Assembly (NCBI RefSeq): GCF_964204645.1
Contig: NC_134026.1
Location: 19,846,467-19,910,466 of the forward strand
Length of the DNA: 64,000 bases
From: Tubulanus polymorphus
Taxonomy: Eukaryota > Animalia > Nemertea
Direction of reading: 5' to 3'
Shown: in pieces, positions 19,744 to 63,295 of the stretch
How positions within the stretch are numbered: the first letter of the stretch is position 1
Layout: each line of letters begins with the position of its first letter
Notes under the pieces: generated by a model
Seen by the model: only the letters and a program-made list of their open reading frames with translations
Database searches by the model: none
What the model was told of the DNA's origin: nothing
Made by a program: the position numbers and the translations under genes

Positions 19744-20011
19744 GAATGAACAATTTTGGGATGACCCAGATACGTTCGATCCCGACCGATTCTACCGAAA
19801 GGAAGTCGATTCGTCGAAGTTTTTGCCATTCGTAGCCGGTCCTCGTATGTGCATCGGTTATAAATTCGCGTTGCTCGAAATGAAAATGATCGTCGCTCGC
19901 GCGTTGAGGTCGTTTCGATTTACGAAGATCCCCGGCAGCAATTACACGAAAAAGATACGCGTCACCATGAGGCCGGATCCTCCGCTCGAGTTGTATATCA
20001 AAGCTGTTTGA
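19744..20011 (+). CDS. CYP4 terminal exon with heme-binding loop: (R)NEQFWDDPDTFDPDRFYRKEVDSSKFLPFVAGPRMCIGYKFALLEMKMIVARALRSFRF...ELYIKAV*
   Basis: Acceptor ttttttcattcag. Contains the P450 Cys-ligand motif FxxGxRxCxG (FVAGPRMCIG) and the PDRF motif. Stop TGA at 20009-20011. Confidence 0.9.
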
Positions 20012-37814: not shown

Positions 37815-38108
37815 AAAAGGTTAGGGTCCAGTTATATTGGCCGGGGTGCCAACCGGCGACTATTCACAGGCGCGAACCCACTACTGCTCGACGCGGGATC
37901 TTTCCACCCTGGGCCGATTCGATCCTCCTTAGACAACCTGGTCAGCCTAGGCTCCCCGTGCTGGCCATATTGACGCCGAGCTTAGCGCGGACGCCCGGTC
38001 GAACGACATAGACCGACGACTGACAGTAATGTTATCCCGGCTTCAAGCTGTCCACCAAACCAAGCCTCCAAGTCGCTGGATTACAGGAGTGCGCCACGAC
38101 TCGCAGCT
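37815..38108 (-). ncRNA. RN7SL: 7SL RNA (signal recognition particle RNA) gene, about 290 nt
   Basis: Plus strand reads ...ctattcacaggcgcgaacccactactg...cctgggccgattcgatcctccttagacaacctggtcag...ccatattgacgccgagcttagcgcggacgcccggtcg...gcctccaagtcgctggattacaggagtgcgccacgactcgcagc. This is collinear with reverse-complemented human 7SL over both the Alu and S domains. Minus-strand TTTT terminator at about 37814-37820. TAAATA lies about 30 bp upstream of the minus-strand 5' end. Confidence 0.8.
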
Positions 38109-41100
38109 AGTAATAGTGCGCTCGTTTGTGGTATTTACCAGACAAACACCAGATGACACCGATTTACATTGTTACTGGCGCCTTTTAAATCAAATCAGTT
38201 CATTAGATAAAGGGCATAGGGCCAGTACGCATACATATACACACATACGTAACTGGGCTCTTTTTCACATTCTTGCTCCTTCACCCGAATTCAAAGTTCC
38301 CTTTTCCCATGGCCCGCTGAAAACTCACTTTCGCACTCAATATCCCCACTCGACATTCTATGAAACCGGAATTCGCCAAGTACCACGGGACGAATAACTT
38401 AGAGTATACATTAGTTATAAAATCAGAATAGCTGTTCGTGAACATATTCATATTTTTATCTATATAATAGAAGCAGGTATTTCAAAAGCCCCCTATTGAA
38501 ATGTTGGTAACCGCGTTCGAATGCTAGTTTGTGGGAAAAAAGGGCGAATTGAAGACTTGGTAGGTGTAATCAGCGCAGCGTAGAATTCATTAAAAGCATT
38601 AGCGTCACAATCGTTTCTATGTGAATGAACCATCATAGCTATAGCCTGCAATCCGCAACTGACCGATGTCACATTGTTCATGGACGCCCATCATTGTAGG
38701 GAAATTCTAGACAACGGATAGCGTTTTGCTGAAACTTGTGAAACTGCATTTGAATTGAAAGTTCCATCAAAGCATTTTATGCGATGAAATTTATTAGAAT
38801 GAAACCAAAAGAAGGTTTTCTCTTACATCCCTGTAGGCCTACAGTATGTTTGTACTAAACATTGAAACCCCTCCCACAACAGAGGTAAGCATTAATTGAT
38901 TGAATACCCCCTTGGTGTAGATAACACAGAAACTTAGGATTTCCTGGTTACTGCCCTGTGTATTTCTATGTGGTTGAATAATAAACAGATGCTGTGACCT
39001 GTACGGAAGAGCAATGCGGCCAACAGCATTTTATTTTCAGTTCAAAAAGTCGACTTTTCGAAATAGTAATTCGACTTTTCGACTTAATAAGTCGACTCTA
39101 ACCACACTGTCATTGTAAACATGGCGGATGTTTATTTGACCGGGCACTTTCCGAACTAAACAGGGCACATTTTTACAATAGGCGGATGTATAATCATTGT
39201 GTGCAAAAAGGGCAATTTGCTGCAAACATTAACATGTTTTTCCTTGCAAAAGAAACTCAAATGCTTGAATATTGCATCTGCAGGGCTTTTTAATTTTCCT
39301 TCGGAGCTCGCCACTCGTGGATAGTTCTTCTTTACAATAATTAGTGCCCTTCTTACCCCTCCCTCCTATTATATCCATATATGCCCTGGATGCGCCCCTG
39401 CGTATCGATCCTTCTATATGAATGAACTACGTTTCTTTTTTTTCTATTTGTTTTTATGTTTTTTTATAAACAATACTATCATCAGGAGAATATAGTTGAA
39501 TCAAACTTAAACTAAGTCAACGACGGCTCAATAATGTATGGAAATTCTCCTAATGATGTGCACGGCGGCAGCACCTTTCGGTGTGAGAATGGTATTTCCA
39601 TTCCACATTGGAACCTATGCATATTTTGCAACCACGGTCGAGATGCCATGCTTTACGATAATGCTGCGTTTAAAGGTGATTGGTTTCTGTATTTGTTCAT
39701 CAGGGGCGTTTAATATTGAATGTGTCCCTGGACCCCTCGTTGTTAGTTCGATGGTCATTCGGGACCACGGTCGGACAGTCGTCAAGGACTGGGGTTGCAG
39801 TTGGGACCGGTCCCTTCCGGTTTGAAATAAGGCGACAAACAATGAATTGAAACAGAACTGTTATAATCAGTTTTACTCGCTTTGCGCTACAGGCATTTAT
39901 TTCATAGATAACAGAAAATATAAGCAGCATTTCAAATAAAATACATTTCAATTGATTGAAAATTATTGATTTATTATATGAAATTAAATAAATGAATCCA
40001 TCAAGAAATCCTAATTCTAATCGATTAATCTAATCAGCCAATCAGCAGTGTTCATTTTCAACACGAGTTGATTTGAAATCGATCGCGTCCAATTAAGAAA
40101 ATAATCATTTTGAAAAAAACATTCGTTGAAAATGCTACGATTAGAGAAGATAAGATATATTACACCCTAACCACACTAAGTGGGACATAGGGGATTACAG
40201 TATTTATAACAGAAAGAAAAGAAAATTAGCATTATCACATAGAATGCTATTATCATAATATATTGCACATCAGTTTTGTCAAATTTGTATACCTTTTTCC
40301 AATGATGAATCACATAGTTCTGAAAGAGACTACTACAAAAAAATTACAACTTAGTTTTGAACGTTGCTTTCACAAATTCAGCAATTTTCGTCAGGAGATT
40401 TAAATTTTCAGATCTCATCATCGCGATTAATCTTTCCAAAGGTGAGCAGCATAGAATAGAGTTGAATATCAAATTCAAAAAATAGTATCAAGTTTTGGAC
40501 ACATGATGAAAACCATCGTCAACAGTTTTGAGATGAAATCTCATACATAACCTCAAACGCCTCTCCTCATTTGAAAAATAATAACTAATCATAAGTCGAA
40601 AATTCCAAATGGTAAACAATGCCGCTTTTCATCTCTGAGTGAATCTATGTACATTTCTTTTCCGTGACTATTTTAGATACATAATATAAGGAGAATTGCT
40701 GTTTAGATTGAACATAATGTTAACCATTTATTTCTCTGATTATTTTCTATGGCAGTACGTATATTATTTTTTTCACAGATTTCCCGTTTTGTAAGTCCCA
40801 GATTCCATTCCCAATGCCGTACAAATTTTCTTTTACGTGCGAAATGTTTTACACAATGCCCTCTTTATTCTACGGTAGTCACCTAAGCGTAATCACGAGA
40901 GAGGTGAACCAGGTTTACAACAGTTCTAGCCTAACAAAGCAACTTAAAGTCCAATCTCTAATTTTACTTAAACCACCTAACACCGGAAACAACCATAACG
41001 AGTATCACCATATTCATCCTGTAGATGGTAGCACTGTTACAATAGTCGTAATCAAATTTCAAATTTCATAATCAGATGTGCAGCAATACACTAGGGCCGA

Positions 41101-41275
41101 GTTCACGTTTTCTCCCCTGATGATGTCTAATGACTTGCTGCAATCCTTGAAGCAACCTCGAACAAACGCTGAAAATCTGTAAGCCACTTTCTAAAATAAA
41201 ACAAACGGACGTGAGTTAAAAACCGGCGACTTAGCAACTAACTTCGCCGGGAGGTAATTAAATCAGCTCACTTAC

Positions 41276-41460
41276 CCCGCATTGATAACCTTCAGGACAC
41301 GTTATGTTCAGTATGTTCTCTTTGTAAAATTTATGCAATTCAGGTCTTGGCTTGGCAGTCGCACCTGTTGCGTCTTCTGGATCAAATTTACCGCGTGAGC
41401 ATCCTTCCGTAAAATAAAGCTCTCTTCCGGTCTCGTTTGCGGCGTTAGATATAAAACCAC
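41276..41460 (-). CDS. Exon of an unidentified minus-strand gene: (S)GFISNAANETGRELYFTEGCSRGKFDPEDATGATAKPRPELHKFYKENILNITCPEGYQCG
   Basis: Minus acceptor tttgattcag and donor GGG|gtaagtgag. In phase with the exon at 42176-42271. No family recognised. Confidence 0.5.
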
Positions 41461-41961
41461 CTGAATCAAATAACAAAACATTTACACTGTGGCGACATCA
41501 GCAACACTCCCCTAAATTCTCCCCTAAAACTTCAAGAAGCTTTTTCAAATTATCAAAACTTATGGTGTATAAGTGGCATGGAAACTGTTAACGTTAAACA
41601 TTTAAATCGAGTCACTTTTCTTTATTAAACCCTGCATTCAATGAAGACTTTTGGCAATCCTTCAATGTAGTGTAAAATGGATTAAAAGACGTTGTTTTAG
41701 TTCAACTGCCAGTAAAGTCTGGAGTCCTATTACCACCTACCAGGGGCCAGTTGCTCAAAAGTTGGAAAGATAAGCAACCCCGTTATAAATCCTTGGACGC
41801 AGTTTGTCAAAGCGTCACGATTCATCTACGAAACGCGTGGTATACATAGGTTATTATGAACAGATATTACCGGTACTTGGTAACTATACAGACATAACCA
41901 TATATTCTAACGTTTTGTCATGTATAACCGAAACTGACTGAGGTAGCCCACCAAATGCACA

Positions 41962-42112
41962 GGGGCTCGTATCATAAGTTTGGGGGTAAACAGTAGCTCA
42001 GATCATCCAGTATCCCTGGTACTATATATAGTTCTTTTTATATATGGTACCAGGGATACTGGATGATCTAAGCTACAGTTCACCCCCAAACTTATGATAC
42101 GAGCCCCCGTGA
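41962..42112. repeat. Near-perfect long palindrome (arms of about 70 bp) at the edge of the unidentified gene
   Basis: gggctcgtatcataagtttgggggtaaacagtagctcagatcatccagtatccctggtacta | tatata... | ...taccagggatactggatgatctaagctacagttcacccccaaacttatgatacgagccc. Confidence 0.85.
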
Positions 42113-42175
42113 CCAAATGTGCTCTCAAGTCAAGTTGAAATAGACATAAGATATTGATGTGACAAATGAACTTAC

Positions 42176-42271
42176 TTTCTTCAGCTAATCGTTTAATCTT
42201 ATCATATTGTGTCTTATAACCGTCTTCATGATATTCACAAGATGCGCAGACCATGTCTTGAACAGCTGACG
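42176..42271 (-). CDS. Exon of the same unidentified minus-strand gene: (x)SAVQDMVCASCEYHEDGYKTQYDKIKRLAEE
   Basis: Minus acceptor ctatttcag and donor GAAGAAA|gtaagttc. Its phase-1 end matches the 2-nt start of the exon at 41460. Confidence 0.5.
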
Positions 42272-45200
42272 CTGAAATAGATGAACCTAGGACCTACAAC
42301 TTTAATGCGGTAGAATCTCTGGTAAAATGACAAAACTGATCATGGAAATCGTCTGAACAGAAAATAAAGTGGCGTTCTAAATAATTGATATATTCTATAA
42401 GTACATAAACCATAATTTCCAAATATGGCATTTGGCAAAATTCAGTATCATCTATGAGGTCAGGGTCAAGGTCAAGCCCCGTTGGCCACTCACAGAGGTT
42501 GGCTGAGTTTCCTTTTTTTATAGTGGAAAACTTTCTTATCAATCAATGTATTTTTGGAATAAAATGTATTTCCAAGATATTAAGAATAATATCATGGATA
42601 ATGAATGTGAATAAGTACTCCTTCACATATATAAGTGTTCCTTTCAGTATTTAAAAAAGTTTCTACAATAACTACATTTTTAAGGTTAACTTCTGAGAAA
42701 TGCCCTTCCCTCAAATCTTGAAATATATCAAAACTGATCTTTCAGGTTCGATTTAGTAAAATTGATAGATAAAAAAGTTTCAAAATTTAGTGCGGCAGGC
42801 ATAATTCCATTCACTGATTTTCATACTTAATGCTTTAGTTCCACCCGTTAATGTAAAAATTTCTCGGGTTCAAGCCAAGTATAGCGTGGAATAGTTCCCC
42901 GCGCAAAGATACATTAAAAAAGGAGTAATTCGAATGCGCACTCTTTCTCAAATGCGTTTTCTACCAACATACAGACAAACAGACATACCGACAAACTGGC
43001 ATGACAAAAAAATCTTTCGGGGGGGGGGGGGTAATTCGTCTACGAACTTTGCGTTTTTCGACTTACACACCGACAAACCGACATACCCATAGTCGGTTTG
43101 TCAGTATGTCAAAATATATGACGCGTGACTAATCTATTTTTGGACAACCCTGTATTCAATATGGCGGGATATCATTTAAGTGTGAGCAGTCCATCAGTTA
43201 TATGTATCGTCCCCCCAGACACGTGGCGCCCCTGTCAAGGCAAGGCCTATAAGCTTGACTTAACAAATCGACTGATGATTTTTTAAATGACCAACGGGTG
43301 GATTTAAAGTGCAAAAATCGTCACTAAAATTTAGTCAGATTGATTTCTACTCAATAAGATTTGCAAGTCCGTAGATAGCGTTTTGCCACTTTACTGTACG
43401 CTGCCTAAAATGTCCATTTCAACTTTGCTTGAGAGGATCTGGTGGATTCATTTTAGTAGCACGTACTAGAATAGGTCGTGATAGAACCAGCACCCAGATG
43501 GGTAGCTTAACTAAAACATTGTTTTTAATCCATTTTACACTGTATTGAAGGATTGAAAAAAGTCTTCATTGAAACGGGTTAAATCATAGAAAAGAAACAC
43601 CATTTATCAGTTTAACGATGCAATATGTTTAATTACCAAAAATTATGGTATGTAGGCATGGAAACATATCGTGGAACATTCAAATTATGGAGTCACTCAA
43701 CCACATTCAAAGAAGACTTGTCAATATAATCCATCAATAAAGTTTAAGATGTATTAAAATCTGATTAAAATCAACATCAGGCTGAGGCAAAGTTGAAAAA
43801 GACATCAGACAGCCGAAATAGATACAAAAATCAAGAATGCGATTTACTACCTCAATACGTTTTTGATCATATTCTATTCTGGGACGGGAAACACAGTGCT
43901 TATCATCACGTTAAAATACCCTGAACAAATTTACCATGAGAAAACAGGACAAGTTAAACTGCTGCCGCCGCCACAAACATTATCTGTAACTGATCCATCC
44001 TTCCGTAGAGTCCTCTGTTACCAGTAGAACTGCTGTCGTCTGTATCCAGTAGAACTGATAGTCTGCCTCTCACGGGTGCTCTCCTATCTCAGCGGACACC
44101 GTTTGAGCTTCACAAAATATTTAGAAGTTATAGATAATGAAGGCGGTTTGAAGAATTTAATTTTATTCTATGAAAACAATTTTCAGTTGAACAAGAACGG
44201 ATTTAATACATTATATAATAGTAATCTGAATTTTAAAATTCCTGGAGCTAGACTACATCCCTCTTTCCCGACTAAAGAACACTTTACTGAATTGCTGAAA
44301 CATAGAGATACAGTCAAAACTGATTCTTCTGGACTAGAAACTATTCCATTAATTTCATCAGCTCAATTTCAGCCGGAAAAAAACTCGTAATATATAAATA
44401 TAATTAAATTCGTTCACTCTAAAACATGATCGATTATTTCATACCAAACGACCAGTTATAATTAAAGTTATAATTTTTATTTTGTCTTCCCTAAGCCGCG
44501 CATTGTATGGTTGTCACTAACAGTTACACATATCATTGTTTTATATTGTTTAATTTGAATATCGTTACTACTGTGGCAAAAAGCTAGCCGATAAAAACAA
44601 AGTATATACAGTGAAAATATTTATGATTTCGTGTAATTCTATTTTTACTGATAACTGAGGAGGGTTGGCTCGAAATTTCGATGTAAATAAATGTATCTCG
44701 TATACAAGTATTGTAACCATGATGATGATGATGACGATGATGATGATATTCGAATAAAGTTAAGATGATGATTTAACAACCAGTTATATTCTTGATTAGC
44801 ACAAAGATGGGGAGTCTTAGACAGTTACTCTAGTTATACGCAAAGGAAACTCTATTGACTAGTCGTCACGGGTCGATCACTCTGCTTTGCTCTGAGCACT
44901 TGTCAACGCTTTTTGCAAACGCAAAATTCAACGATGATACTCCACCTGTTTATATCGCTGCTCACCTGTAAATGCAAAACAATAGATGGAATTTGACGGT
45001 CTCAAACAAATCCCTTCGTCCACCTACTAGTGTAAGTATAAATACAATACCGAAATATTTAAGTGAACACCGTATACGTTATAACAACGCTCTACCGACA
45101 GCTACCTACAGCTTTCAGCAAAGAAACAGTCATCCGGCGAATTCCGCATAGAAAATGAAAGGAAAGGAGAATTTTGTTCATGGTTCAAGTGAAAACGGTC

Positions 45201-45299
45201 CACCTGGTAAATATAAACCGACTTTCCGAAAGAACAAAACCACTTTAAAGTATAAGAAGCGTTATTACATCATATTTCATTTCGTAAAAGGTCTAATTT

Positions 45300-45470
45300 A
45301 CAACTATAGCGATGTATATACCAGTCAACCCCCGATATACCGCCCTCCCATTCACCGCCAGTCCCACCTACAGCCATGTACATCTCAATACAAATACATA
45401 GTAAAACACCCCCGATATACCTCGATAATCGTTGTGCACCGATGTGGGCAGTATATCGGGTATTGATCAC
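45300..45470. mobile_element. MITE family B copy (TIR cagtcaacccccgatata ... tatatcggg)
   Basis: Shares cagtcaacccccgatatacc...cacatcggtgcagaacgattttgg...tatatcggg with 46960-47100 and 50663-50786. Confidence 0.6.
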
Positions 45471-45752
45471 TGTATATGCCTTCGATAAAACGAATGCGGT
45501 GCCTTTCCTGAAAAAGTTGTCTCAGATACGCTCCATGAAACCGATAAACTTTTCCCGGTTTCTCCGACGTAATCATTTCCTCTAATATAATTCGTTCCAC
45601 GAATTGAGAGATTTTCCACAACCCGTAAGGCCGCAAACTAACATAGTAAAAAACAGCGTTTAAATTTCACGGGCCCGTACATATTCATATACAATTTCAT
45701 CCGTAAGTGCATTAGATAATAGTAACGTAGGTTTTTTGCTTTGATTTTATAG

Positions 45753-46180
45753 GTTCGGTGTATTCGTGCCCAGTCTGCGCGCCTATAAAGATATTCTCCA
45801 GAAAAGACGCTTTGAAACGACACATGAAGAGACACGACGACAACGATGATTGGCTTCATTGCTCGATATGTTCGAGGCGATTTAGTCGTCGGGACTGTCT
45901 TCAGAGGCACTATAAAATGATACACGGAAGCGGTGTAAAATGTGACGCCATTCAACCGTCGACGTCAAAATCGTACACCCAGTCGTCAATGTCTCCTTCT
46001 ACTACACCATTAGAAAATGATGCTCAAAATAACAAGAAACGCAGGGCCGCGGCAAACGGGATGATTTCTGAACATGAAAGTACACAGAACTTTAGGCCTA
46101 TATATAATATAGTAATCAACGTTTATACAGTGGAACCTCGTTACAGCGATTTTTACGGGACCTGGAAATGTGTTTATTAA
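45753..46180 (+). CDS. C2H2 zinc-finger protein exon (two fingers): ..YSCPVCAPIKIFSRKDALKRHMKRH ... LHCSICSRRFSRRDCLQRHYKMIH.... The 3' end runs into a MITE.
   Basis: Acceptor ttgattttatag at 45741-52. Two C-x2-C-x12-H-x3-H motifs. The open frame continues into MITE sequence from 46128 (VEPRYSDFYGTW), so the native C-terminus is uncertain. Confidence 0.4.
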
Positions 46181-46286
46181 ACGAATCCGATAGTTCGTTA
46201 CATCCGGTAGTATGAAATTAATCAAATTTTCTTACCCGAGACGAAATTCTATATTTGTTATATCCGATGTATCCGAGGTTCCGCTG
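46128..46286. mobile_element. MITE family A copy (cagtggaacctcgtta ... cgaggttccgctg), 159 bp, TA target site duplication
   Basis: Same TIRs as 20545-20748. TA at 46126-27 and 46287-88. Confidence 0.75.
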
Positions 46287-46959
46287 TATGTATGCGGTTT
46301 TATCGCGTGTTGGAAAACGCGTGAACGTGAAATTTTGAATCACGTTTTATTGCGTAGCAATCATTGCACAAATGCAAAAATTCGTATGCAATTTTTATTG
46401 CATTTTTGAAAGTTATAATATGTGAATATAGCGTGTGAATATAGCGTTTGACATCATTCCTTATTCGTCTAAGAAAAGAATAAGAAAAACAGAAAAGAAA
46501 ATCGTCATTTTTACATTTTCTATTTACAAAATACATATTCTTATTCATATAGTACACATATATTCTTATTCATTTATATGTTATTTTTTACTAAATACTC
46601 CGAGGAACATATCCATGTTTTGATCATCGACAGGAATAATCGATTACGGACAATAAACACATTTACACCCAGGTGTGGTATATGGTGATCGGTATAGTAA
46701 AAACATTCTGGAAGTTTTAACAGTCCGGGTTCCGCTGTTTCGAAATCTATTTTGCGGAGGCATAGCCATTGCCCTAAACTAAGATCATCACCGTCGTGTC
46801 GATATCTGATGTCGGTATAAATACGTCAAGTATCGTGATGTGAAAATATTTTCACTATTAGTAAAAAGTTCGATCTTCCTAAATGCTGAACGAAAATATG
46901 GTCCTCATCTTTTTATACGTTCGTTTTCGTGCTCGATCTCGGCGAAACAGGATGCCCTA

Positions 46960-47100
46960 TGGGTCCATTCTTGCAAATGTAGCGAAACACCTGTCTTAGT
47001 AGGGTATACCGCCCACATCGGTGCAGAACGATTTTGGCGGCATAGAGAGTATAGCGGTATATCGGGTGTGATTTACTACGTATTTGTATAGTGATATACA
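46960..47100. mobile_element. MITE family B copy
   Basis: cgcccacatcggtgcagaacgattttggcggcatagagagtatagcggtatatcgggtg. Confidence 0.55.
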
Positions 47101-47164
47101 TAGAGAAAATCTGGCGGTAGGGCCACAACCGAAAAAATCTTGGGCGGGGCAATCACCAAAATGG

Positions 47165-47262
47165 GTAGGTAGGTAGGGATTTTTTTTCTTTATATAGAAA
47201 ATACAATTTTGGGGGATTTTTTCTCTTTTTATAGAAAATCCAATTTTGGGTATACTTCTGAA
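47165..47262. repeat. Two-copy tandem repeat of about 48 bp
   Basis: gattttttttctttatatagaaaatacaattttgggg / gattttttctctttttatagaaaatccaattttggg. Confidence 0.7.
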
Positions 47263-49487
47263 ATTGGGTAGGTCGCCGTAAATACTTTTTTTACAGGAAC
47301 AAATTCTTAGTCAGGAATAAAATATATATATATGAATTAAAAATTTATTATATCTATAATTTTATGATGTGGATCTCAGTGCCGACATATGACGATTTGA
47401 TTTAAAAGAAACAAATATTTACGAGAATGGAGAGTTTGATAGTTAGGGTAAGATTGCAAAATCTGATAGTACAAGTAAAATTGAAATTCAAAGACAAATG
47501 TACATACCATCATTTCGCTTTTCCGACGGAATTGGATATTCTTGGTAGATATTATTGAGCTAAATCTGATATCATTTAATTTGAATTTTTGGCGCATTTC
47601 AAAAGACTTTCCAGTGACGGTTCCAGAAGCGTACTTGTACTCCAGCAGAAAGAAATGAAAAGGGCATGTAGTAAAAAGTGCAAGTATCCGGACACAGCGC
47701 CAAAACATGGGTCAGGAAAATCTATGAATTCCAGTGTATTTTCATACAACTTCTGGACACTTGAGTGACATATAGAATAGCTAAATCTTGCGCTGCGGAC
47801 TGCTGTTCTATTATTCGTGGGTGGAAAATTGCCCGGAAAAAATGATGCCATCGTATTTTCAAAAAGGGACGGAAGATTTGCGATAGCAGCACGCGCCCTT
47901 AACGCTCCCGCCCCTGCTTTGACAGACACAACACGCTCCTGGCAGAAAGGTGATTACTTCAGCAGATTTAAAACCACATAATTAACGGTTAGATTACTTG
48001 CATCATACGGCGCAGTATACGGTACGCGCAAGACTCGAACATCGGTCAGTAATAGTTCTGACAGAAGGGGCAAATATTTATCCAGTTATTGTAGCTGAAA
48101 GTTTATTTAAGGTACGCAGAGTGAGCTAATTGCCCTATTGGTCTCGTTATTGACAAATCGCTAGATCTTGGCGAAGAAATAATTTCCGTCTAGTGAGATT
48201 AGAACCGAGCACGGATCGACGACGAATATACGCACGAGGGTGGATACTTTCAGAAAGTGAGTTACGGGGATTGATTCGGGGACTTCGCGCCTGAATCGAG
48301 GGGAATATGAAACAAGATTACGATACAGAAGCATGATGGTAAGTCATTGATTTATTATTTCTTCATTTAAATACCTTTAGTCTGATCACCAGACGATGTT
48401 ATGGATCGAACAACAGTTAGATACATAAGATGCCCATGCCTTGCCTACTTAGTAGTTAATAACCCATTCAGTATGGATCAGGGGGGTGATAAACCTCAGC
48501 TTATCAATTCAAAAGCGCGAAAGAAACTCTTCCAATTTAAGTGTCTCATTGTCACAATTCATATTTAGAAATAGTCCACGCATTCCCTATAGGTAAATGT
48601 TGGCCTTTGAGTTCGCGCAATTATCATCATATTGCGATCCATTGCCCACAAGTGCAGCATTGTTTTCAAGCGTTCAGGTTGTCTACGAACTGTACCATTG
48701 ACTTTTTCATCCATGGTTGAATCAAATATAGAACACTGCGTGCTACTGGATTTTCACTTCGATGTAAATAGGTATTCTTAAGCCAAATTAATAAATCAAT
48801 TCATTAAATGAACACTCAATATCTTGATGCAATCTATTTACAGCCTGCACCAATACCGACATTTTTTTGCCCTTCCAAAATTTGATCACAGGACTTCACA
48901 CATTTTGTTCATAATAATTGAAAATTGACTTAGCAATGGACTACAAATGCAGAACATTCAACAAACTTGACAACTTGAATGATCTTTTCTAACTCGCTTT
49001 TCCAGGTTTCAAAAGACGAAATAGGCGCTTTTTTCAACCGGTTTAAGGTCTAGAGGGTGTAGGGATAGGGATTTTACTCTCTACTTCCAATAAGCAATTT
49101 GCCTAACATGAACATATGAATGGTGCGACAGAAAACGATGATGATGAAATTGAAATTATGAAATAATGCATGGAAAACGTAATTGCAAATTTTCAATATT
49201 GTCTATGTAGACATAGAAGTGACCTTAATGGATGTGACAAGTTGTTAAAAATCAACAACAAAGATAATTGGTGTATTTCAAAGCAGGAGTGCACCTTTTT
49301 GGAAATGAAAGAACCCTAAACAGATATAAGTTCTTCAAAATTAGCCCCTCAGTGCAGGAGTACGCCTAATATTGCCTTTTTCGGATATTGAGGTGCCTTT
49401 TTAGGCTTTGACAGGTCCTTCAAAATTAGCCCCCGGATCCGCCAACCTGTAATCAAAGTGTATCTCGTTATGTTTTTACATTTGCAG

Positions 49488-50510
49488 GATGCGTACAAGG
49501 CCATGAAAATATTCGTCATATCATGCTACATATTTTTCGGCGTCGCCGGAAATCTATTGATCATAATCGCCGTCGCTCGCAAGAAAAAACTACAAGTAAC
49601 AACAAGCGTTTTCATCGTCAACGTCGCCATTTCCGACATGGTAGTCGCCGCCGTCGTGATGCCGACGATTCTGGTAAATCTGCTCACCGACGGACGCATG
49701 GTCGGCTACGACGAATGCGTGTTTTTCGCGTTCGTCCTGCTCACGTCGTGCGGCGTATCGTTGATCAGTCTTTCGTTGATCGCGTTCAACCGTTACGTCA
49801 ACGTCTGCCATCACGCGTACTACAAACGCGTGTTCGAAAACCGTTTCGTCGTCGTAATGGTCGCCGCCGTTTGGAGTTTTTCGTTCTCGATAGTCGCCAT
49901 CGGTAGTTTCACGCCGCTCGCGAAATTCAGCTACGACCCGCGGCTGTACACGTGCACGTACATCAACCGAGAATCGCGCGTGTACACGTTATTGCTGATG
50001 ACGGTCGGCATCGTTTTACCCTGCGTGCTGACGTCGTTCGGCTACATCAAAATCTTCCGGAAAATCCGCGACTCTCAGAACAACATGATGGCGCACGCGT
50101 CCGCGACGCATAACAATAAGGAAAAGAAAGCCATATTCGCGATGTTTTCGGCGTTCGCGGCGTTCGCTATTTGTTGGTTTCCGTACGGTACGATTGCGAT
50201 CGTCGACGCGTTCACGAAAGGAATCTCCGACGAGGCTCATTTGATCGTCGCGTGGCTCGCGTTCGGCAACTGTTCGTTGAACTGGCTCATCTACGGCGGG
50301 TTGAACTCGAATTTTCGACAAGGATACAAGAAAATCTTCGTTACCTGCCGCAGTCGCAACAAAAGAGCGATCGCCGATTCGACGACGACACAGACGAACG
50401 GGAATCTACATCGAGCGAAACGGGATACTCGGACCTCCGTCGTAAATCTACCGCAGAGACAGATGATCAGCGCTAGTTCAACTGTTCCCACTTTATCGGA
50501 AACATCATAA
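49488..50510 (+). CDS. Melatonin-receptor-like rhodopsin-family GPCR. Main coding exon; first in-exon Met at 49503; TGA stop at 50508-50510.
   Basis: Seven hydrophobic spans. TM1 GNLLIIIAV; TM3 NRY (not DRY), as NRYVNVCHHAYY versus MTNR1A NRYCYICHSLKY; ECL2 YDPRLYTCTY versus YDPRIYSCTF; TM7 NWLIYGGLNSNFRQGYKKIF versus NAIIYGLLNQNFRKEYRRII. An acceptor ttacatttgcag at 49476-87 suggests a short upstream exon. Confidence 0.85.
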   Translation, partial: DAYKAMKIFVISCYIFFGVAGNLLIIIAVARKKKLQVTTSVFIVNVAISDMVVAAVVMPTILVNLLTDGRMVGYDECVFFAFVLLTSCGVSLISLSLIAFNRYVNVCHHAYYKRVFENRFVVVMVAAVWSFSFSIVAIGSFTPLAKFSYDPRLYTCTYINRESRVYTLLLMTVGIVLPCVLTSFGYIKIFRKIRDSQNNMMAHASATHNNKEKKAIFAMFSAFAAFAICWFPYGTIAIVDAFTKGISDEAHLIVAWLAFGNCSLNWLIYGGLNSNFRQGYKKIFVTCRSRNKRAIADSTTTQTNGNLHRAKRDTRTSVVNLPQRQMISASSTVPTLSETS

Positions 50511-50662
50511 CATTACGTACTGCATATTTAAAAATGTATTCATTATAGAGGAGTGTAAATAAACAGATGCCGGTTCATTAATACAGATCAGACACTACCC
50601 GATATCTCTAATCGTAGTAGTTTTTACAAAAATGAGAATAATTTCACTTCATAATGTAGTAC

Positions 50663-50786
50663 AGTCAACCCCCCCCCCCGATATATCACCCACATCGGTG
50701 CAGAACGATTTTGGTGGTATAGAGAGTATGGCCGTATATCGGGGGCGGTGGTATATTGTTAATACTCGTATATCGGGAGTTGACTG
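50663..50786. mobile_element. MITE family B copy, 124 bp, immediately 3' of the GPCR
   Basis: cagtcaaccccccccccgatatatcacccacatcggtgcagaacgattttggtgg...tatatcgggagttgactg; the termini are reverse complements. Confidence 0.7.
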
Positions 50787-52272: not shown

Positions 52273-53141
52273 TCAAAAGCTAAACAAATCATCCACATTT
52301 TCATTGTCGCGTTTTCTAGATTTTTTCGGAGGAGGTTTGCGTTTTTCGTCGATCCGCCGAAGACCGGCATCGTCATCGTTATCGCCGACGGAGAATAAAT
52401 CGTCCAGTAAATCGGCGCACGTGTTCTCTGTAACGGCGCTACACGACGAGCGTTCGGTGATTTGAACATCGGCGGCGCTGGCGGGCGCCGGATTTCGTGG
52501 AGGTTTTTTAAACGTTCGGCGATTCGGTCGCGCCGGAGTAAAATCGAGAAAACTGTCTAAAAACAGCGAATTTTCGTCAGTCATGTGAATTCCGGTAGCT
52601 GATTCCGATACAGCTGCGCTGCTAACGTTACGCGGCAATAACGCCGGTTTATCGAAAACCGCACTTTTTGAACGTTCATCCGCATGTACCATGACCAAAG
52701 AATCATTCCCTTCAATTTTTTCTCTACGCGAGCTCGATTTTCCGATACCTTTCTTGAACGTCGTAGTTCGCAAATTTTCATCGCATCCGTTCCGCACTTT
52801 CGATTCATCCAAATGACCGCGATTTGAATCGGGTATCGCTGTCCTTTCACCGCAACTATTATCCGAGATATAGTCATCCGCCGACGAATGGTTCAGACCG
52901 ATCCGCCGGCAATTTCTATCCCTATCTCCGGGAAAAATTTGATAATCGTCTTTTCGATTGGGTGACACCCGAGACGGACCGGGTCCTGCATCTAAATCTA
53001 GATCTGCATCCGATCGGCCGCGTCCGAACACGTCTTCATCGTCACTAGAAATTACATATTCGACGCCTTTCCTAGATTTGCGAGTCTTCAACGGAGCTTT
53101 GCGACGCACACGAGGACACGTCAGTTGCTTTTTGTTATTTA
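52273..53141 (-). CDS. ERCC6L2: ERCC6L2-like SNF2 helicase, terminal exon of the long isoform. Acidic, Ser-rich tail ending ...[47 protein letters not shown]
   Basis: Minus acceptor ctatttcag (AG at + 53142-43); stop at 52273-75. Human ERCC6L2 C-terminus has LLGDTSILDDLFKSHG. In phase with the exon at 53865-54085. The N-terminal YIYIYI portion of ORF 52273..53400 is the intronic (TA)n and was excluded. Confidence 0.75.
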
Positions 53142-53169
53142 CTGAAATAGAATGCATGTAACACGGAGT

Positions 53170-53260
<91 letters not shown>

Positions 53261-53262
53261 GT
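53170..53262. repeat. (TA)n microsatellite, about 45 units
   Basis: atatatatat... run in an ERCC6L2 intron. Confidence 0.95.
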
Positions 53263-53864
53263 ATATATATATGTATTATATAAATGTATTATATAAATGT
53301 ATATATATATGTATTCGTATTCAAGTTCATTAACCCCATAAAGGTTTTGAGCATATTCCAAACATTTTGTCCTCATTCTATCATTTTGTTTAGATATCAC
53401 TGCTCTTCATTCAGAACAACATAGCAGCTCGGGGTCAAGGCAGAATGCTCATGATTGAAAATTATGAATTAATTGAAACCCTGGGATAAAACAATTGGAG
53501 AGTGTACCAATGTTTGAGAGTATTAAACTGATCTCATTCCTTGTTGATATTTACACATAAAATACTGAACATTTGAGTATCTTAAGTATCGACATTAGAC
53601 AAGGAATGTGATGTATTTGAAATACTGAAATCATAACCATAAGATGATTTATCCTTATGAAAACTACATTGCACTGTTCAGCATATCAAATAATCTTTTT
53701 TTATGAAGGCAAAAAATTGATACCTTGTTTCTCATTTCTGATGAGCTTTAAAGTTGACCCAGCCAGTCGCTTATTTTCCCTGTACATTACTTTGATTTAC
53801 AAAACGACCCGGCTGATTAGGCATCAAGGCATCATTTCTTTTAGCCTTAGTGTAAAACCAGTAC

Positions 53865-55340: not shown

Positions 55341-55900
55341 CTGTAGCAGATTATTTACAAAATAGCAATTCAATACCCATGGCATATATCATGAAATATA
55401 CTCATGAGACTTAGATATTGATATTCTAGTAACATCACTGCAGGTATCAATCTGGGATCATTTGTGCCAAAAAGTTGGTTGAGGAAAAGCTGGTAGACAA
55501 GCTGGCTTTGTGATGACGAAATACCATGGTAACAGCGCAATTTCAATTGTCACTATGGCATCTACCTGTACCTCAGCCTGAACTACAGAAGACTCTGCCC
55601 GGATCCGTTCAACTCATGCTTTTAAAAATATTTTTTGTGACACTATATATGAAATCAATATGAATTTTTGATGAAATACATAACATCCAACTTGGTTATC
55701 ACTCAAGTCAAACATATTCTTACAGTCACTTTTTATTAAATTGTGATGACAAAATATCTAAATATTTGGGTTCATTTGTTAGTTCATTTTCAAATAAGAA
55801 TGTCATCGAAAATTAGGGAAATATTGATGAAGTATTGGAAGTCTGAAGGAGTGGGTCCTGGCTGTCAATTAATACCTGCACAATCGCAGCAAAAACCTAC

Positions 55901-56395
55901 CGAACACGTCCGAAACTGACTCAAAGCTCTCTTGGCAACTTTTCCCATCGAACCGGACATCTTTCTTGTGCCTTTTCAGTTTACGAGGTGGCACATTATT
56001 TTCCGAATTCCTGTCGGTAATGGTGGCAGCAGCGCGTTTATTCAATGGACGTTCATCACTGTCATCGGACGAAATCAGACATTTATCCCGTGATGGGATT
56101 TCTCGACAACGAACAGATTTTGCTGGTAGTGATTTTTCCGTCACAGTAGCAACGTTATCAATAAATTCATCCGTACATTTATGGGAGTTTTCGTCGTCTT
56201 CGAGTTTTTCTTGATCCTCTTCAAGTTCATCGTTCAAATCGTTACTGTTGTTAAGTTCATGTAATTCCACACTTTCATCGTCAGAGTCCGATATATCGCC
56301 CAAATTTTCAGCGGAATCAGATCGTTCTTGTTCGCGTCGTTTTACACTTCTTCGCAGTTTTATGTTTTTGGAATTGCCAGTTTCATTTAGCATTT
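55901..56395 (-). CDS. ERCC6L2: ERCC6L2-like exon (long isoform): (E)MLNETGNSKNIKLRRSVKRREQERSDSAENLGDISDSDDESVELHELNNSNDLNDELEEDQEKLEDDENSHKCTDEFIDNVATVTEKSLPAKS...FESVSDVF
   Basis: Minus acceptor ttgttccttag and donor TTC G|gtaggt. Phase-compatible with 56814-56898 (G + AA = Glu). Acidic, CK2-site-rich, like the vertebrate ERCC6L2 tail. Confidence 0.65.
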
Positions 56396-60208: not shown

Positions 60209-61648
60209 ATGAAAATAGAAATACTTTTCGTTTCACTAATTTTGCTAACAGTGTTCTGCGGTAATGGAGAGAGCAGACGACACCACCCGAAAAACCTGCA
60301 CAGACGGCAGCGAATTCATTTAAAAAGTAACAGCAGAAACAACGGCGAAAACGCAATGAGTCAACTCGATCGACGAAAATACACGAATCAAGCCGCACGA
60401 CTCGAGGAGAATAAGCAATTCATAGATCACCCGAAGTATATCGGATTTCAGCAAGAAAATTCACAAGCGGTGAACACGTCAGACGACGGCGAAGAAAAAC
60501 TCGCACTTAACGACGAGAATAACTACGCGGCGATCAAAACGCGTAACGAAATCATATTCGTCGTGATATTTTTGTTGATGTATTGCAGCGGGTTCGTGAT
60601 GGTTTTGGGCTACAATATGACGATGCCGTACACCGACGAAGACGACGAAAAAGTACAAGAAATGACACGGCAAGCGATCGCCGAACGGGAAACGCGCGTG
60701 CACAATGACAAAATGCGTTTGTACAATTCGTTCAAGAGGAAATACGGCGGCAAGCCGGAAATACGCGTCGAGAGTCCGACTCCGACGACTTCGACGACTC
60801 CCGTGCAGTCGAAGAGACACGCGCTGAAACGAATCGGAAGTTTCCTACGTTCCAGCAGCATTTCGTTACCGAGACGCGCAAATTCGTCGAGCCTTGGCGT
60901 CGCGAGCTCAACGAAAACGCGACGCAGTCAGCCGCTGCCGATGACGACGCGAACGCCGCAACTCAGCCCGAAAAAACGAGACGAAGCGGATTACGATGAC
61001 GACGATTTGAACTACCGAACCATCAGCAGCCTGAACGAGTTTAAACGAATGGTCGCGAAAAAAGCGTTGAAGAACCGACAGCTAAGCGTCGCGTCGGTGG
61101 GAACTACGCGCAGCGAACCGGAGTTTTCATTCGAGAAGGGACCGATGCGTAGTTCGGTCGACACGCCACCGATGAAGACATCGCCGTATAGCAGCGCGGC
61201 CACATCGGTCGAGTGGGAATTTGGAGGCGCCGATTCTCCGTTACTGGACGAGCGGAAAAACGATACAGGTAAGACACGCGACGAAAACCAACTGTCCGAA
61301 AAGGAGCCACTCCTTCAAAACGCCGACGAAAACTCATCGGCAATCATCGATATGTCCGAGTTGAGAAAGAGCCTCGAACAAAAAAGACGGGACTTCTTTA
61401 ACCCGCCACCCCCACAACCAATAGAGGTAATAGTAAAAGTAGATAACAATAATGAGCCAAATAGATCAAAATCACCAAAACGAAATACTTCGGACGCGAG
61501 CTTGAAAATGCCGGGAGTGCGCGCAAATTCACAGGTTCGATTTGCGATACCGGTTAAAACCGTTCGTAGTTTTTCCGCCCCGGCTAGTCCTATCCTCCCC
61601 GAAAAAGATCCCTCACTTTTTACTCCACAGAGAGTCAAAACAGAATAA
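60209..61648 (+). CDS. Intronless 479-aa ORF nested in an ERCC6L2 intron: predicted signal peptide plus single-pass membrane protein with a Ser/Thr/Arg-rich, CpG-rich tail. Function unknown.
   Basis: 1.44-kb uninterrupted frame in otherwise AT-rich, stop-dense DNA. N-terminal MKIEILFVSLILLTVFCGNG (signal-like) and a hydrophobic span IIFVVIFLLMYCSGFVMVLGY. Codon and CpG style match the other bona fide exons here. No homolog recognised. Confidence 0.45.
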   Translation: MKIEILFVSLILLTVFCGNGESRRHHPKNLHRRQRIHLKSNSRNNGENAMSQLDRRKYTNQAARLEENKQFIDHPKYIGFQQENSQAVNTSDDGEEKLALNDENNYAAIKTRNEIIFVVIFLLMYCSGFVMVLGYNMTMPYTDEDDEKVQEMTRQAIAERETRVHNDKMRLYNSFKRKYGGKPEIRVESPTPTTSTTPVQSKRHALKRIGSFLRSSSISLPRRANSSSLGVASSTKTRRSQPLPMTTRTPQLSPKKRDEADYDDDDLNYRTISSLNEFKRMVAKKALKNRQLSVASVGTTRSEPEFSFEKGPMRSSVDTPPMKTSPYSSAATSVEWEFGGADSPLLDERKNDTGKTRDENQLSEKEPLLQNADENSSAIIDMSELRKSLEQKRRDFFNPPPPQPIEVIVKVDNNNEPNRSKSPKRNTSDASLKMPGVRANSQVRFAIPVKTVRSFSAPASPILPEKDPSLFTPQRVKTE

Positions 61649-63295
61649 AGTAACAGTTAACAAATGAAAGTACCATAATAAAAACTTCCTAGAAGAATTT
61701 GTGAGGGCATCAACTAGCAACATTTAGTCGATATGAAAGTGCCGTACATCTCTCTACTAGCCATAGCCATACTAGAATATATTTTGTGTGTATATTTTTG
61801 TAAATAAGGAAAGGAGCTTTTTCAAACAGGTCCCTTAAAAAGGGTGAAAATTAATGGGACAGACAATACAGAGGGTCAATGGGTCCTATTGACCCCCCTG
61901 TATTATCTGTCCCATGTTTTTCGTGAACTTTTAATTTGACATGTGATTTCGTGAAATCGAGGAAAAAAGTGAATTTGAGAGACTGTAATTGTGAATGTGA
62001 ATTCGACATAGAATCAGCGTGATTTATTGAATCTCTTGGTATATTTCTGGGAATCATTAATTTAATTGAATGGTTCATTCATATAAGGCAAGTGAGGCTA
62101 TGTAATTATAGACATTCATTTGCCTGTATGTTATGGTTTTGAATACCAAAGTTGGGTTGTTACAACTTTAATGCATCGCTTTTTCATAAAAGCTAACAAT
62201 TTTCATGAATTTACCGCATGAATTGTGAATTATCAAAAAACGTGAATCATATTTTCGTCCCTGATCAATAGAATCTGATGCACAACTGTGATTTTTATCA
62301 AAGAAATATATTCTTACCTAATTCATACAATCATATATATTTTGTACATCACATATATACACTAATCACAAAAGTATTGATGATTTTTTCAGAAAGAAAG
62401 CTTAACTACTAAAAACGGGAAATCATGTTCGATATGCCTTATTTTTGAAATAAAATGATATTTTTTCGAAGAAAAAAAATCTTTGATCTATGGAGTGATA
62501 AGGTTAAATCTGCAATATCAACTTTCTCATCGAAAAAGGAGTGACAAAAAAGGCTGGCACATGCTCGTTCATTTAATCCGCAATTTCCCTTTTCATTTCT
62601 CAACCCACTGAGCCCAACTGGGACCCTCCTTAAGCAGATTCAAGGTGTCTTTTCCCAAGGGAGAAACGTCTGTCAGAGAAAAATCTTTGACCAACAAAAC
62701 TCTGCTGCCCTAAGGATTCGGGTCTGTGCACCCTCCATTGGTAGACCAGTGCCCAGTTGCTCATACCCCTCAGCCACTTTGCCTCATCTGAACTGGCTAT
62801 TAGCTAATCTTCCCCGCATTACCATATGAAAAAACTTAACATAACCATCAACTTGAATCTAAAGCCTCAATTTTTCGGCCCAAGCCTTTTAGATTTTGCC
62901 ATTCGGCCTGGCTTACTAAGGAATCTGCCCAACAAAAGCTACAAACCTGTGGATAAGTGAGCGACGGCCATTAAAGACAAAGCCAATCCAGGGGCCAGTT
63001 TTATAGACAGGTGTTAACTTTAACTTGGGGGGCTAACTCAATTCAATTTCAATTGAGTTAGCCCCTGGGTTAAAGTTGCACAAATCCATCAAATTTTTCA
63101 AAAGTGCCTCGTTTCATTTTGTCAAAGAAAATTTTCGGACATCAAAGAGCCCTGTTGGGACTTGACAAGTTCTTCAAAACTGGCCCCTCAGTGCAGGATT
63201 ACACCTTATATCGCCTTTTTGGACATCAAAGTGCCCTTTTGGGATGTGACATATCCTTCAAAAATGGCCTCTGAATCCACCCCTGAAATACTCAC

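What the first reader, a model, noticed from the sequence alone, without database searches (positions are those of the whole stretch)
48230..50510. Melatonin-receptor-like GPCR with a probable 2-codon first exon
The GPCR has the melatonin-receptor hallmarks NRY in TM3, YDPRLYTCTY in ECL2 and a non-NPxxY TM7 (NWLIYGGLNSNFRQGYKKIF). Its coding exon starts at a strong acceptor (tttgcag at 49481-87) only 5 codons before the first Met, leaving almost no extracellular N-terminus. About 1.15 kb upstream, gcATGATG|gtaagt (48333-48340) would splice in phase 0 to give MMDAYKAMKIF.... If correct, this is an invertebrate melatonin-type receptor with an unusually short N-terminus and an intron position different from vertebrate MTNR1 (which has its intron after TM1).
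Basis: partly seen in the sequence, partly recalled or inferred. Interest (0 to 1): 0.55.

Follow-up and report, generated by a model that had tools for sequence, protein, structure and literature searches.

The report
Annotated melatonin-receptor-like GPCR gene, uncertain start
This is an intact ribbon-worm (Tubulanus polymorphus) gene for a melatonin-receptor-like cell-surface receptor that is already in RefSeq; the proposed two-codon first exon is in no public gene model and is only one of four possible starts that sequence alone cannot tell apart.

Summary
Window 49488-50510 (+) encodes a complete seven-helix class A GPCR (Pfam 7tm_1, E 8e-43). Its best solved relatives by sequence and by fold are human MT2, MT1 and GPR50.

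The protein is 100% identical to RefSeq XP_074641264.1, 'melatonin receptor type 1A-like' of the nemertean Tubulanus polymorphus. It is one of at least six such paralogs in that species.

That RefSeq exon looks weak: a poor donor, background codon usage and an N-tail far longer than in the paralogs. A 9-codon uORF overlaps its ATGATG, and two other starts (ATG 49470 unspliced, Met 49503) also fit.

So the 5' end is unresolved and the two-codon exon is unsupported but not refuted. Several melatonin-contact residues of MT1/MT2 are replaced, so the ligand is uncertain, and my NJ tree does not resolve deep placement.

This is an ordinary, already catalogued gene. Interest is low.

The parts
49488..50510 (+). 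Main coding exon: 340 codons plus TAA. It holds all seven TM helices, helix 8 and the C-tail of the GPCR.
   Evidence: ORF. Pfam 7tm_1 E 7.9e-43 over residues 21-269. 100% identical to residues 65-404 of XP_074641264.1. AlphaFold model pLDDT 78.6, pTM 0.76, with seven helices plus helix 8.
49466..49487 (+). 3' splice acceptor: T-rich tract plus CAG (ttatgtttttacatttgcag|GAT), phase 0.
   Evidence: Sequence. It has the same form as the 8 acceptors of the neighbouring P450 gene. The RefSeq protein changes exon exactly here.
40856..41047 (+). First coding exon of the RefSeq model (64 codons, MPSLFYGS...GSTVTIV). Its donor is GTC|GTAATC at 41048.
   Evidence: Exact k-mer mapping of XP_074641264.1 residues 1-64 and sequence. 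Weak points: donor -0.1 bits; GC3 0.41 and CpG o/e 0.69; codon-usage score equal to the noncoding null; no Pfam hit.
41048..49487 (+). Intron of the RefSeq model (8440 bp). It contains a C2H2 zinc-finger ORF and several repeat copies.
   Evidence: It is about five times longer than the longest of the 8 P450 introns, which span 117-1632 bp.
48333..48344 (+).
   Evidence: Sequence. Donor 9.8 bits; only 3 of 593 GT sites in 38000-49400 score as high. The implied intron is 1149 bp, within the local range. CpG is raised in 48000-48400 and low in 48400-49400. It is in no public model.
48307..48336 (+). Upstream ORF (ATG AAA CAA GAT TAC GAT ACA GAA GCA TGA).
   Evidence: Read directly. It is out of frame with ATG 48333 and would be met first by a scanning ribosome if the transcript starts upstream of 48307 (inference).
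49470..49472 (+). In-frame ATG inside the presumed intron end. An unspliced start here gives MFLHLQDAYKAMKIF... (346 aa).
   Evidence: The in-frame stop upstream is at 49389. It puts N1.50 at residue 28, close to the paralogs' 29-38.
49503..49505 (+). First Met inside the main exon (MKIF...). The TM1 hydrophobic stretch starts here.
   Evidence: The hydropathy scan starts TM1 at about residue 69-70 of the 404-aa protein. MT1 TM1 aligns from here.
49788..49814 (+). NRYVNVCHH: the NRY motif in place of DRY at the end of TM3, with the Cys-His that follows it in melatonin receptors (NRYCYICHS).
   Evidence: [quoted passage not shown]
49932..49961 (+). ECL2 motif YDPRLYTCTY (MT1 YDPRIYSCTF). It is predicted as a beta-hairpin.
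   Evidence: Strands at residues 147-150 and 155-158 in the model.
50280..50339 (+). TM7 and helix 8: NWLIYGGLNSNFRQGYKKIF. N7.49 and Y7.53 are kept, with W at 7.50 instead of P (most class A) or A (vertebrate MT).
50558..50563 (+). AATAAA polyadenylation signal 48 nt after the stop codon.
49328..49453 (+). Copy of a short interspersed repeat ending 34 nt upstream of the acceptor.
   Evidence: 79% identical over 126 nt to 63167-63289.

Best explanation
The window carries an intact gene of the nemertean Tubulanus polymorphus for a class A GPCR of the melatonin-receptor-like group. It is identical to RefSeq XP_074641264.1.

Gene structure. All seven helices, helix 8 and the C-tail are encoded by one exon (49488-50510). 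A polyadenylation signal lies 48 nt downstream of the stop. The exon most likely begins at a real splice acceptor (49487|49488; my estimate is about 0.75).

Where translation starts is not settled. My subjective shares are:
- (A) about 0.4: the RefSeq structure, a 64-codon exon at 40856-41047 joined across an 8.4-kb intron. This is the single most likely option, but only weakly so.
- (D) about 0.2: no splicing, start at ATG 49470.
- (C) about 0.15: a non-coding 5' exon, start at Met 49503.
- The rest goes to structures not listed here.

How it works (inferred from homology). A small ligand binds in the helical bundle under a lid formed by the ECL2 hairpin, which carries the YDPRLYTCTY motif. 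Activation is passed on through NRY, CWFP and NWLIY to a heterotrimeric G protein; vertebrate relatives use Gi. Most of the side chains that hold melatonin in MT1/MT2 are replaced. The ligand may therefore be another indole- or arylalkylamine-type compound rather than melatonin bound in the vertebrate manner.
For: Identity and family:
- Pfam 7tm_1 E 7.9e-43.
- The best PDB sequence hits are MT2 (8.6e-42), MT1 (1.4e-37) and GPR50 (4.4e-32). The next family is the histamine H2 receptor at 8.4e-30.
- phmmer gives 143.6 bits to MT against 95.7 to the best of ADRB2/A2A/HRH2 and 45.7 to rhodopsin.
- The seven best Foldseek hits are MT1/MT2.
- It is 100% identical to XP_074641264.1.
- Five more T. 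polymorphus paralogs carry the same kind of name.
- Motifs are at the stated coordinates.

Acceptor:
- It has the consensus form.
- It is the exon boundary of the RefSeq protein.
- A repeat copy lies just upstream of it.

For (A):
- It is the only public model.
- A donor this poor is unlikely to be picked without transcript evidence, given a stronger in-phase donor at 40904 in the same ORF (inference).
- The frame is open for 64 codons.

Uncertainty of the start.

Pocket (with for N162):
- Lost or changed: MT1 N162 aligns to Phe or a gap, H195->G, N255->G, Y281->A, Y285->F, G108->L.
- Conservative: F179->Y, Q181->N.
- N162, F179 and Q181 are named as the ligand contacts in bioRxiv 10.1101/2025.04.18.649542.
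Against: Against (A):
- The donor GTC|GTAATC scores -0.1 bits, against 5.0-11.2 for all 8 introns of the neighbouring P450 gene. The intron is 8440 bp against 117-1632 bp.
- The exon's codon-usage score (-0.105 bits per codon) equals the mean of 326 stop-free noncoding windows (-0.102, sd 0.15). The main GPCR exon scores +0.12 to +0.37.
- CpG o/e is 0.69, against 1.5-2.1 in the window's likely host coding ORFs.
- It puts N1.50 at residue 86, against 29-38 in five paralogs.
- The CDS starts at the third of three in-frame ATGs, which would suit a model with no 5' UTR evidence.

Against a firm 'melatonin clade' call: bootstrapped NJ gives only 9% support for a group of all the hits plus MT that excludes the aminergic outgroups.

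No transcript data could be reached with these tools.
Confidence: 0.8

Rival explanations
1. Reader's model (B). A first exon ends with ATGATG at 48338 and splices in phase 0 to 49488. This gives MMDAYKAMKIF... (342 aa) with an extracellular N-tail of about 7-9 residues.
For: - The donor ATG|GTAAGT scores 9.8 bits; only 3 of 593 GT sites in 38000-49400 score as high. That is inside the 5.0-11.2 range of the local P450 donors.
- The implied 1149-bp intron is inside their 117-1632 bp range.
- CpG is raised in 48000-48400 and falls right after the donor.
- Strong donor-like sites cluster in 46673-48339, with none between 48340 and 49480.
- The second ATG would have a good context after splicing (ATGATGG; read).
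Against: - It is in no public model, and the exact 342-aa protein is absent from about 15 billion sequences.
- An ATG at 48307 opens a uORF that ends inside the ATGATG.
- 158 ATG...|GT phase-0 candidates exist upstream.
- Two codons cannot carry any coding signal.
- It puts N1.50 at residue 24, shorter than in all five paralogs.
Confidence: 0.12
2. Non-coding 5' exon (C). The acceptor is real, but the upstream exon or exons (possibly the one ending at 48338) are untranslated. Translation starts at Met 49503 (335 aa), leaving practically no extracellular N-tail.
For: - GCCATGA is a good start context.
- The uORF at 48307-48336 would favour re-initiation at the next in-frame ATG, which is Met 49503 (inference).
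- In the closest non-Tubulanus homolog (P0006, 46% identity) an acceptor-like ttattttag lies 3 nt before the start ATG. That fits a 5'-UTR intron just upstream of the coding exon.
Against: - The TM1 hydrophobic stretch starts at this Met, so N1.50 would be residue 17. Paralogs have 29-38.
- Class A receptors with no N-tail at all are very unusual (my own knowledge).
- The exact 335-aa protein is not in the collection.
Confidence: 0.15
3. Single-exon gene (D). There is no splicing at 49487. The T-rich 'acceptor' is coding sequence and translation starts at ATG 49470, giving MFLHLQDAYKAMKIF... (346 aa).
For: - ATG 49470 is in frame, with the nearest in-frame stop at 49389.
- N1.50 falls at residue 28, next to paralog XP_074642545.1 (29) and close to the others (34-38).
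- The six extra codons use codons that also occur in the main exon.
- The closest homolog encodes its N-tail and TM1 in one ORF.
Against: - RefSeq splices here.
- The sequence is a textbook acceptor, like the 8 P450 acceptors.
- GC3 and CpG change at this point.
- A repeat copy ends 17 nt upstream of this ATG.
- The exact 346-aa protein is not in the collection.
Confidence: 0.2

Closest known systems
Human melatonin receptors MT1 (MTNR1A) and MT2 (MTNR1B)
   Same: - They are the best sequence and fold matches among solved structures.
- Shared features are N1.50, D2.50, NRY instead of DRY, Cys-His after NRY, the ECL2 motif YDPR(I/L)Y(S/T)CT(F/Y), CW.P in TM6, and no Pro at 7.50.
   Different: - Identity is only about 30%.
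- Melatonin contacts N4.60, H5.46, N6.52 and Y7.38 are lost. Y7.43 becomes F, Q181 becomes N and F179 becomes Y.
- Position 7.50 is W, not A.
- There is no intron between TM1 and TM2. The vertebrate genes have two exons split by a large intron (PMC2323367).
- Ligand binding has not been tested.
GPR50 (melatonin-related receptor, orphan)
   Same: It belongs to the same group and has lost melatonin binding through changes that include ECL2 (PMC6778780). It is a PDB hit at E 4.4e-32.
   Different: GPR50 is a vertebrate-specific derivative of Mel1c with a long C-tail. The window protein does not fall inside the chordate MT/GPR50 clade, which has 100% bootstrap support on its own.
Tubulanus polymorphus paralogs XP_074642545.1, XP_074642991.1, XP_074641449.1, XP_074646079.1 and XP_074647491.1
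   Same: - They come from the same species, and three lie on the same 31.9-Mb chromosome record.
- RefSeq gives them the same kind of name.
- They are 24-39% identical over the 7TM core and share NR(Y/F) and Gly at 5.46.
   Different: Their RefSeq N-tails are short (N1.50 at residue 29-38), against 86 in the RefSeq model of the window gene. Their exon structures could not be read with these tools.
Placozoan receptors Tadh153/165/168/170, which the authors place with melatonin receptors
   Same: These are melatonin-receptor relatives that lack the MT1/MT2 ligand-contact residues. They respond to tryptamine, tyramine, serotonin or phenethylamine rather than N-acetylated amines (bioRxiv 10.1101/2025.04.18.649542). 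They set a precedent for a different ligand in this group.
   Different: They come from a different phylum. No direct comparison was made here, and the window receptor is untested.

Membership tests
Class A (rhodopsin-like) GPCR | Seven-helix 7tm_1 domain with N1.50, D2.50, R3.50, W6.48/P6.50 and N7.49/Y7.53 | tested here: met
   Pfam PF00001 E 7.9e-43 over model positions 1-260 of 260. The key residues are present. The AlphaFold model has seven helices plus helix 8. Foldseek TM-scores are up to 0.89 when normalised by target length.
Melatonin receptor group (MTNR1A/1B/1C, GPR50) | NRY instead of DRY at the end of TM3, followed by C.ICHS | tested here: met
   NRYVNVCHH at 49788-49814. N, R, Y, C and H are kept; the first Cys and the final Ser are not. 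NRY is described as the group signature in PMC2323367.
Melatonin receptor group (MTNR1A/1B/1C, GPR50) | NAxxY in TM7 in place of NPxxY (feature from my own knowledge) | tested here: inconclusive
   The sequence is NWLIY. As in MT, there is no Pro at 7.50, but the residue is Trp, not Ala. Trp is shared with P0006, P0007, P0010 and the Haliotis homolog P0017.
Melatonin receptor group (MTNR1A/1B/1C, GPR50) | ECL2 motif YDPRIYSCTF forming the lid of the ligand pocket | tested here: met
   YDPRLYTCTY matches 7 of 10 positions exactly, and the other three changes are conservative. It is predicted as a beta-hairpin.
Melatonin receptor group (MTNR1A/1B/1C, GPR50) | Melatonin-contact residues N4.60 (N162), F179 and Q181 in ECL2, plus H5.46, N6.52, Y7.38 and Y7.43 | tested here: not met
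   N162 aligns to Phe or a gap. F179->Y, Q181->N, H195->G, N255->G, Y281->A, Y285->F. The contact list for N162, F179 and Q181 comes; the other positions are from my own knowledge of the MT1/MT2 structures.
Melatonin receptor group (MTNR1A/1B/1C, GPR50) | Falls in one clade with vertebrate MT receptors, to the exclusion of other class A families | tested here: inconclusive
   Similarity ranks MT first by about 40-48 bits, and 136 of 139 relatives are closer to MT than to ADRB2/A2A/HRH2. However, NJ bootstrap support for such a clade is 9%.
Melatonin receptor group (MTNR1A/1B/1C, GPR50) | Two coding exons split by a large intron in the first cytoplasmic loop | tested here: not met
   TM1 to the stop codon is one ORF. 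The only candidate intron lies before TM1.
Melatonin receptor group (MTNR1A/1B/1C, GPR50) | High-affinity melatonin binding and Gi coupling | not testable with these tools
   This needs a ligand-binding or signalling assay.

The most novel reading that the evidence does not exclude
The window gene belongs to a nemertean-expanded subgroup of melatonin-receptor relatives. The subgroup keeps the family scaffold (NRY, the YDPR lid) but has a remodelled pocket: Gly at 5.46 and 6.52, no Asn at 4.60, and Trp at 7.50. On this reading it has a very short or absent N-tail and responds to a ligand other than melatonin. By analogy with the placozoan relatives, that ligand could be a non-acetylated or differently acylated arylalkylamine.
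Probability: 0.35. Interest if true: 0.3.

Novelty: already known. Interest (0 to 1): 0.12.

Why it matters
It matters little beyond annotation quality. The gene is already catalogued with the same family label.

Two points have modest value. First, the RefSeq N-terminus of this receptor rests on an exon with none of the usual marks of a coding exon. Anyone cloning the receptor should therefore map the 5' end before expressing a 404-aa construct. Second, the pocket residues argue against assuming that 'melatonin receptor type 1A-like' proteins of nemerteans bind melatonin.

Tried and rejected
1. Transcript-level evidence.
- Exact look-ups of the three alternative proteins (342, 335 and 346 aa) found nothing.
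- A search with the RefSeq N-terminus plus the junction (100 aa) returned no hit at all, not even the RefSeq protein itself. I take that as a limit of the word index, not as evidence.
- The look-up of encoding contigs has neither XP_074641264.1 nor the paralog XP_074642545.1 on record, so the paralog's exon structure could not be read.

2. Orthologous genomic DNA.
- The metagenome scan with the protein found no relative.
- Only one related locus (L001, 46% identity) was obtained.

3. Phylogeny.
- The first MAFFT L-INS-i run timed out.
- The NJ tree and bootstrap gave no resolution of the deep nodes, so I do not use them for or against clade membership.

4. RefSeq exon 1 as a repeat. No other copy was found in the window, so I dropped this idea.

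5. Pseudogene. I rejected this: the 340-codon ORF is intact, all class A key residues are kept and codon bias is strong (GC3 0.70).

6. Opsin. I rejected this: phmmer gives 45.7 bits to rhodopsin against 143.6 to MT.
Full report
1. The observation

The ORF 49458-50510 on the + strand is open. tttgcag occupies 49481-49487 and is followed by GAT GCG TAC AAG GCC ATG, so the first Met (49503) is five codons after the acceptor. ATGATG occupies 48333-48338 and is followed by GTAAGT, and splicing there would be in phase 0. NRY (49788-49796), YDPRLYTCTY (49932-49961) and NWLIYGGLNSNFRQGYKKIF (50280-50339) are present.

- An ATG at 48307 opens a nine-codon uORF. Its TGA stop (48334-48336) lies inside the ATGATG.
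- An in-frame ATG at 49470, inside the presumed intron end, would give MFLHLQDAYKAMKIF... without any splicing. The nearest in-frame stop upstream is at 49389.
- An AATAAA signal at 50558 lies 48 nt after the stop codon.

2. What the protein is

The 340 codons from the acceptor match Pfam 7tm_1 over the whole model (E 7.9e-43).

Against all PDB sequences the best hits are MT2 (8.6e-42), MT1 (1.4e-37) and GPR50 (4.4e-32). The next family, the histamine H2 receptor, follows at 8.4e-30.

A local phmmer comparison gives 143.6 bits to MT. The best of ADRB2/A2A/HRH2 gets 95.7 bits and rhodopsin gets 45.7. Of 139 relatives, 136 are closer to MT than to the aminergic receptors.

An AlphaFold model built on a nine-sequence alignment (pLDDT 78.6, pTM 0.76) shows seven helices, helix 8 and an ECL2 hairpin. 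Its seven best Foldseek hits in the PDB are MT1 and MT2.

3. It is already catalogued

The protein is 100% identical to residues 65-404 of XP_074641264.1, 'melatonin receptor type 1A-like [Tubulanus polymorphus]'. The window is therefore nemertean DNA.

The exhaustive representative search found 60 proteins at E <= 1e-30. Five further T. polymorphus proteins have the same kind of RefSeq name, and three of them are on the same 31.9-Mb chromosome record. Named homologs also occur in Haliotis and Amphiura. The gene is thus one member of a lineage expansion of melatonin-receptor-like GPCRs.

4. The gene's 5' end

The extra 64 N-terminal residues of the RefSeq protein map exactly to 40856-41047 on the + strand.

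I then asked how well each candidate fits local splice and coding signals. For calibration I retrieved the RefSeq P450 protein of the neighbouring gene (LOC141900394) and mapped it to the window. This gave eight GT-AG introns, each fixed by an exact match of the spliced translation to that RefSeq protein. Their donors score 5.0-11.2 bits on a generic donor matrix, and the introns are 117-1632 bp long.

The RefSeq donor of the GPCR gene compares poorly:
- GTC|GTAATC scores -0.1 bits and ranks about 250th of 593 GT sites.
- Its intron is 8440 bp.

- It scores 9.8 bits and implies an 1149-bp intron.

The RefSeq first exon also lacks coding signals:
- GC3 is 0.41 and CpG o/e is 0.69, the same as background. 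The main exon has 0.70 and 2.05. The window's other likely host coding ORFs have CpG o/e of 1.5-2.1.
- A codon-usage log-likelihood trained on the window's other coding sequences gives the exon -0.105 bits per codon. That equals the mean of 326 stop-free noncoding 64-codon windows (-0.102, sd 0.15). All five 64-codon pieces of the main GPCR exon score +0.12 to +0.37.

The RefSeq N-tail is an outlier among paralogs. N1.50 is at residue 86, against 29-38 in the five paralogs.

CpG is raised in 48000-48400 and drops right after 48339. Strong donor-like sites cluster in 46673-48339, and none lies between 48340 and 49480.

Some points still favour the RefSeq exon:
- It is the only public model.
- A gene finder would hardly choose so poor a donor without spliced-read evidence, because a 7.0-bit in-phase donor exists at 40904 in the same ORF. 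This is inference.
- If the exon is really transcribed, 64 stop-free codons in the right frame would be unlikely by chance. I estimate about 1% from a stop frequency of roughly 6.6% per codon.

Nothing here can decide between the models without transcript data. My subjective split is:
- RefSeq structure: 0.4.
- Unspliced start at 49470: 0.2.
- Non-coding 5' exon with start at Met 49503: 0.15.
- Other structures: the rest.

The closest non-Tubulanus homolog (P0006, 46% identity, JGI contig L001) encodes a 22-residue N-tail and TM1 in one ORF. An acceptor-like ttattttag lies 3 nt before its ATG. This shows that short N-tails and an intron just upstream of the coding exon may be usual in this subgroup.

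5. Is it a melatonin receptor?

The family scaffold is kept. This includes N1.50, D2.50, NRY, the Cys-His after it, the ECL2 motif, CW.P, N7.49 and Y7.53.

The ligand contacts of MT1/MT2 mostly are not kept:
- N162 (4.60) aligns with Phe or a gap.
- H195 (5.46) and N255 (6.52) are Gly.
- Y281 (7.38) is Ala and Y285 (7.43) is Phe.
- G108 is Leu.
- Only F179->Y and Q181->N are conservative.

N162, F179 and Q181 are the contacts named in a 2025 preprint. That preprint also shows that placozoan relatives lacking them respond to other monoamines.

Position 7.50 is Trp, not the Ala of vertebrate receptors. The intron that splits the vertebrate genes is absent.

A bootstrapped NJ tree recovers the chordate MT/GPR50 clade (100%) and the aminergic outgroup (98.5%). 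It gives only 9% support for uniting the invertebrate relatives with MT, so clade membership is not shown here.

The safe statement is 'melatonin-receptor-like orphan GPCR'.

6. Verdict

The two-codon exon is unsupported and is only one of four options.

The gene is already in RefSeq under the same label, so novelty is nil and interest is low. The useful by-product is a warning that the annotated N-terminus is doubtful.

Noticed in passing
window 13166-20008 (+): Cytochrome P450 gene (RefSeq LOC141900394 isoform X2, 431 aa). I mapped it to nine coding exons with eight GT-AG introns of 117-1632 bp and used it as a local splice-site calibration.
   Followed up: yes
window 45758-46180 (+): A 140-codon ORF with two C2H2 zinc fingers (Pfam zf-C2H2, E 1.3e-8) and raised CpG. 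It lies on the same strand inside the 8.4-kb intron of the RefSeq GPCR model. It may be a nested gene, a last exon of another gene, or transposon-derived. If it is a separate gene, it makes the long intron more suspect.
   Followed up: partly
window 24112-25321 (+): Two adjacent ORFs of a reverse transcriptase (Pfam RVT_1, E 3.3e-14) with low GC3 and CpG. This is a retrotransposon fragment.
   Followed up: partly
window 49328-49453 and 63167-63289; 47005-47066 and 50682-50743; 41592-41710 and 43501-43617 (inverted): Short interspersed repeat copies at 79-90% identity flank the GPCR exon on both sides and lie within the RefSeq intron. The family was not identified.
   Followed up: no
window 7804-7959 (+) and 11307-11462 (-): Two nearly identical 51-codon ORFs (MYPKLFRKCL...AGRHRRC) lie in opposite orientation about 3.4 kb apart. 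They are probably the arms of a large inverted repeat or two copies of a mobile element.
   Followed up: no
likely host coding ORFs across the window, e.g. 3179-3664, 49488-50510, 52273-53400 (-), 60209-61648: The window's likely host coding ORFs have CpG observed/expected of 1.5-2.1. The window as a whole has about 1.1 and the transposon ORFs have 0.8-0.9. CpG excess looks like a usable marker of coding exons in this genome.
   Followed up: partly
window 52273-53400 (-): The long ORF runs into a (TA)n/(ATA)n-type microsatellite that translates as YIYIYIY... at its 5' end. The ORFs at 52273-53400 (-), 55869-56393 (-) and 60209-61648 (+) have no Pfam match.
   Followed up: no
L001 2195-2216: In the JGI contig that carries the closest non-Tubulanus homolog (P0006, 46% identity), an acceptor-like ttattttag lies 3 nt before the start ATG, with an in-frame TAG at its end. 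The source organism of the contig is unknown.
   Followed up: partly
window 40442 and 40760-40778 (+): A very strong donor-like site (AAG|GTGAGC, 11.5 bits) lies about 410 nt upstream of the RefSeq first exon, and a strong acceptor-like site (tatattatttttttcacag) lies about 80 nt upstream of it. Two more in-frame ATGs (40814 and 40844) also precede the annotated start. There may be further upstream exons or another transcript here.
   Followed up: no
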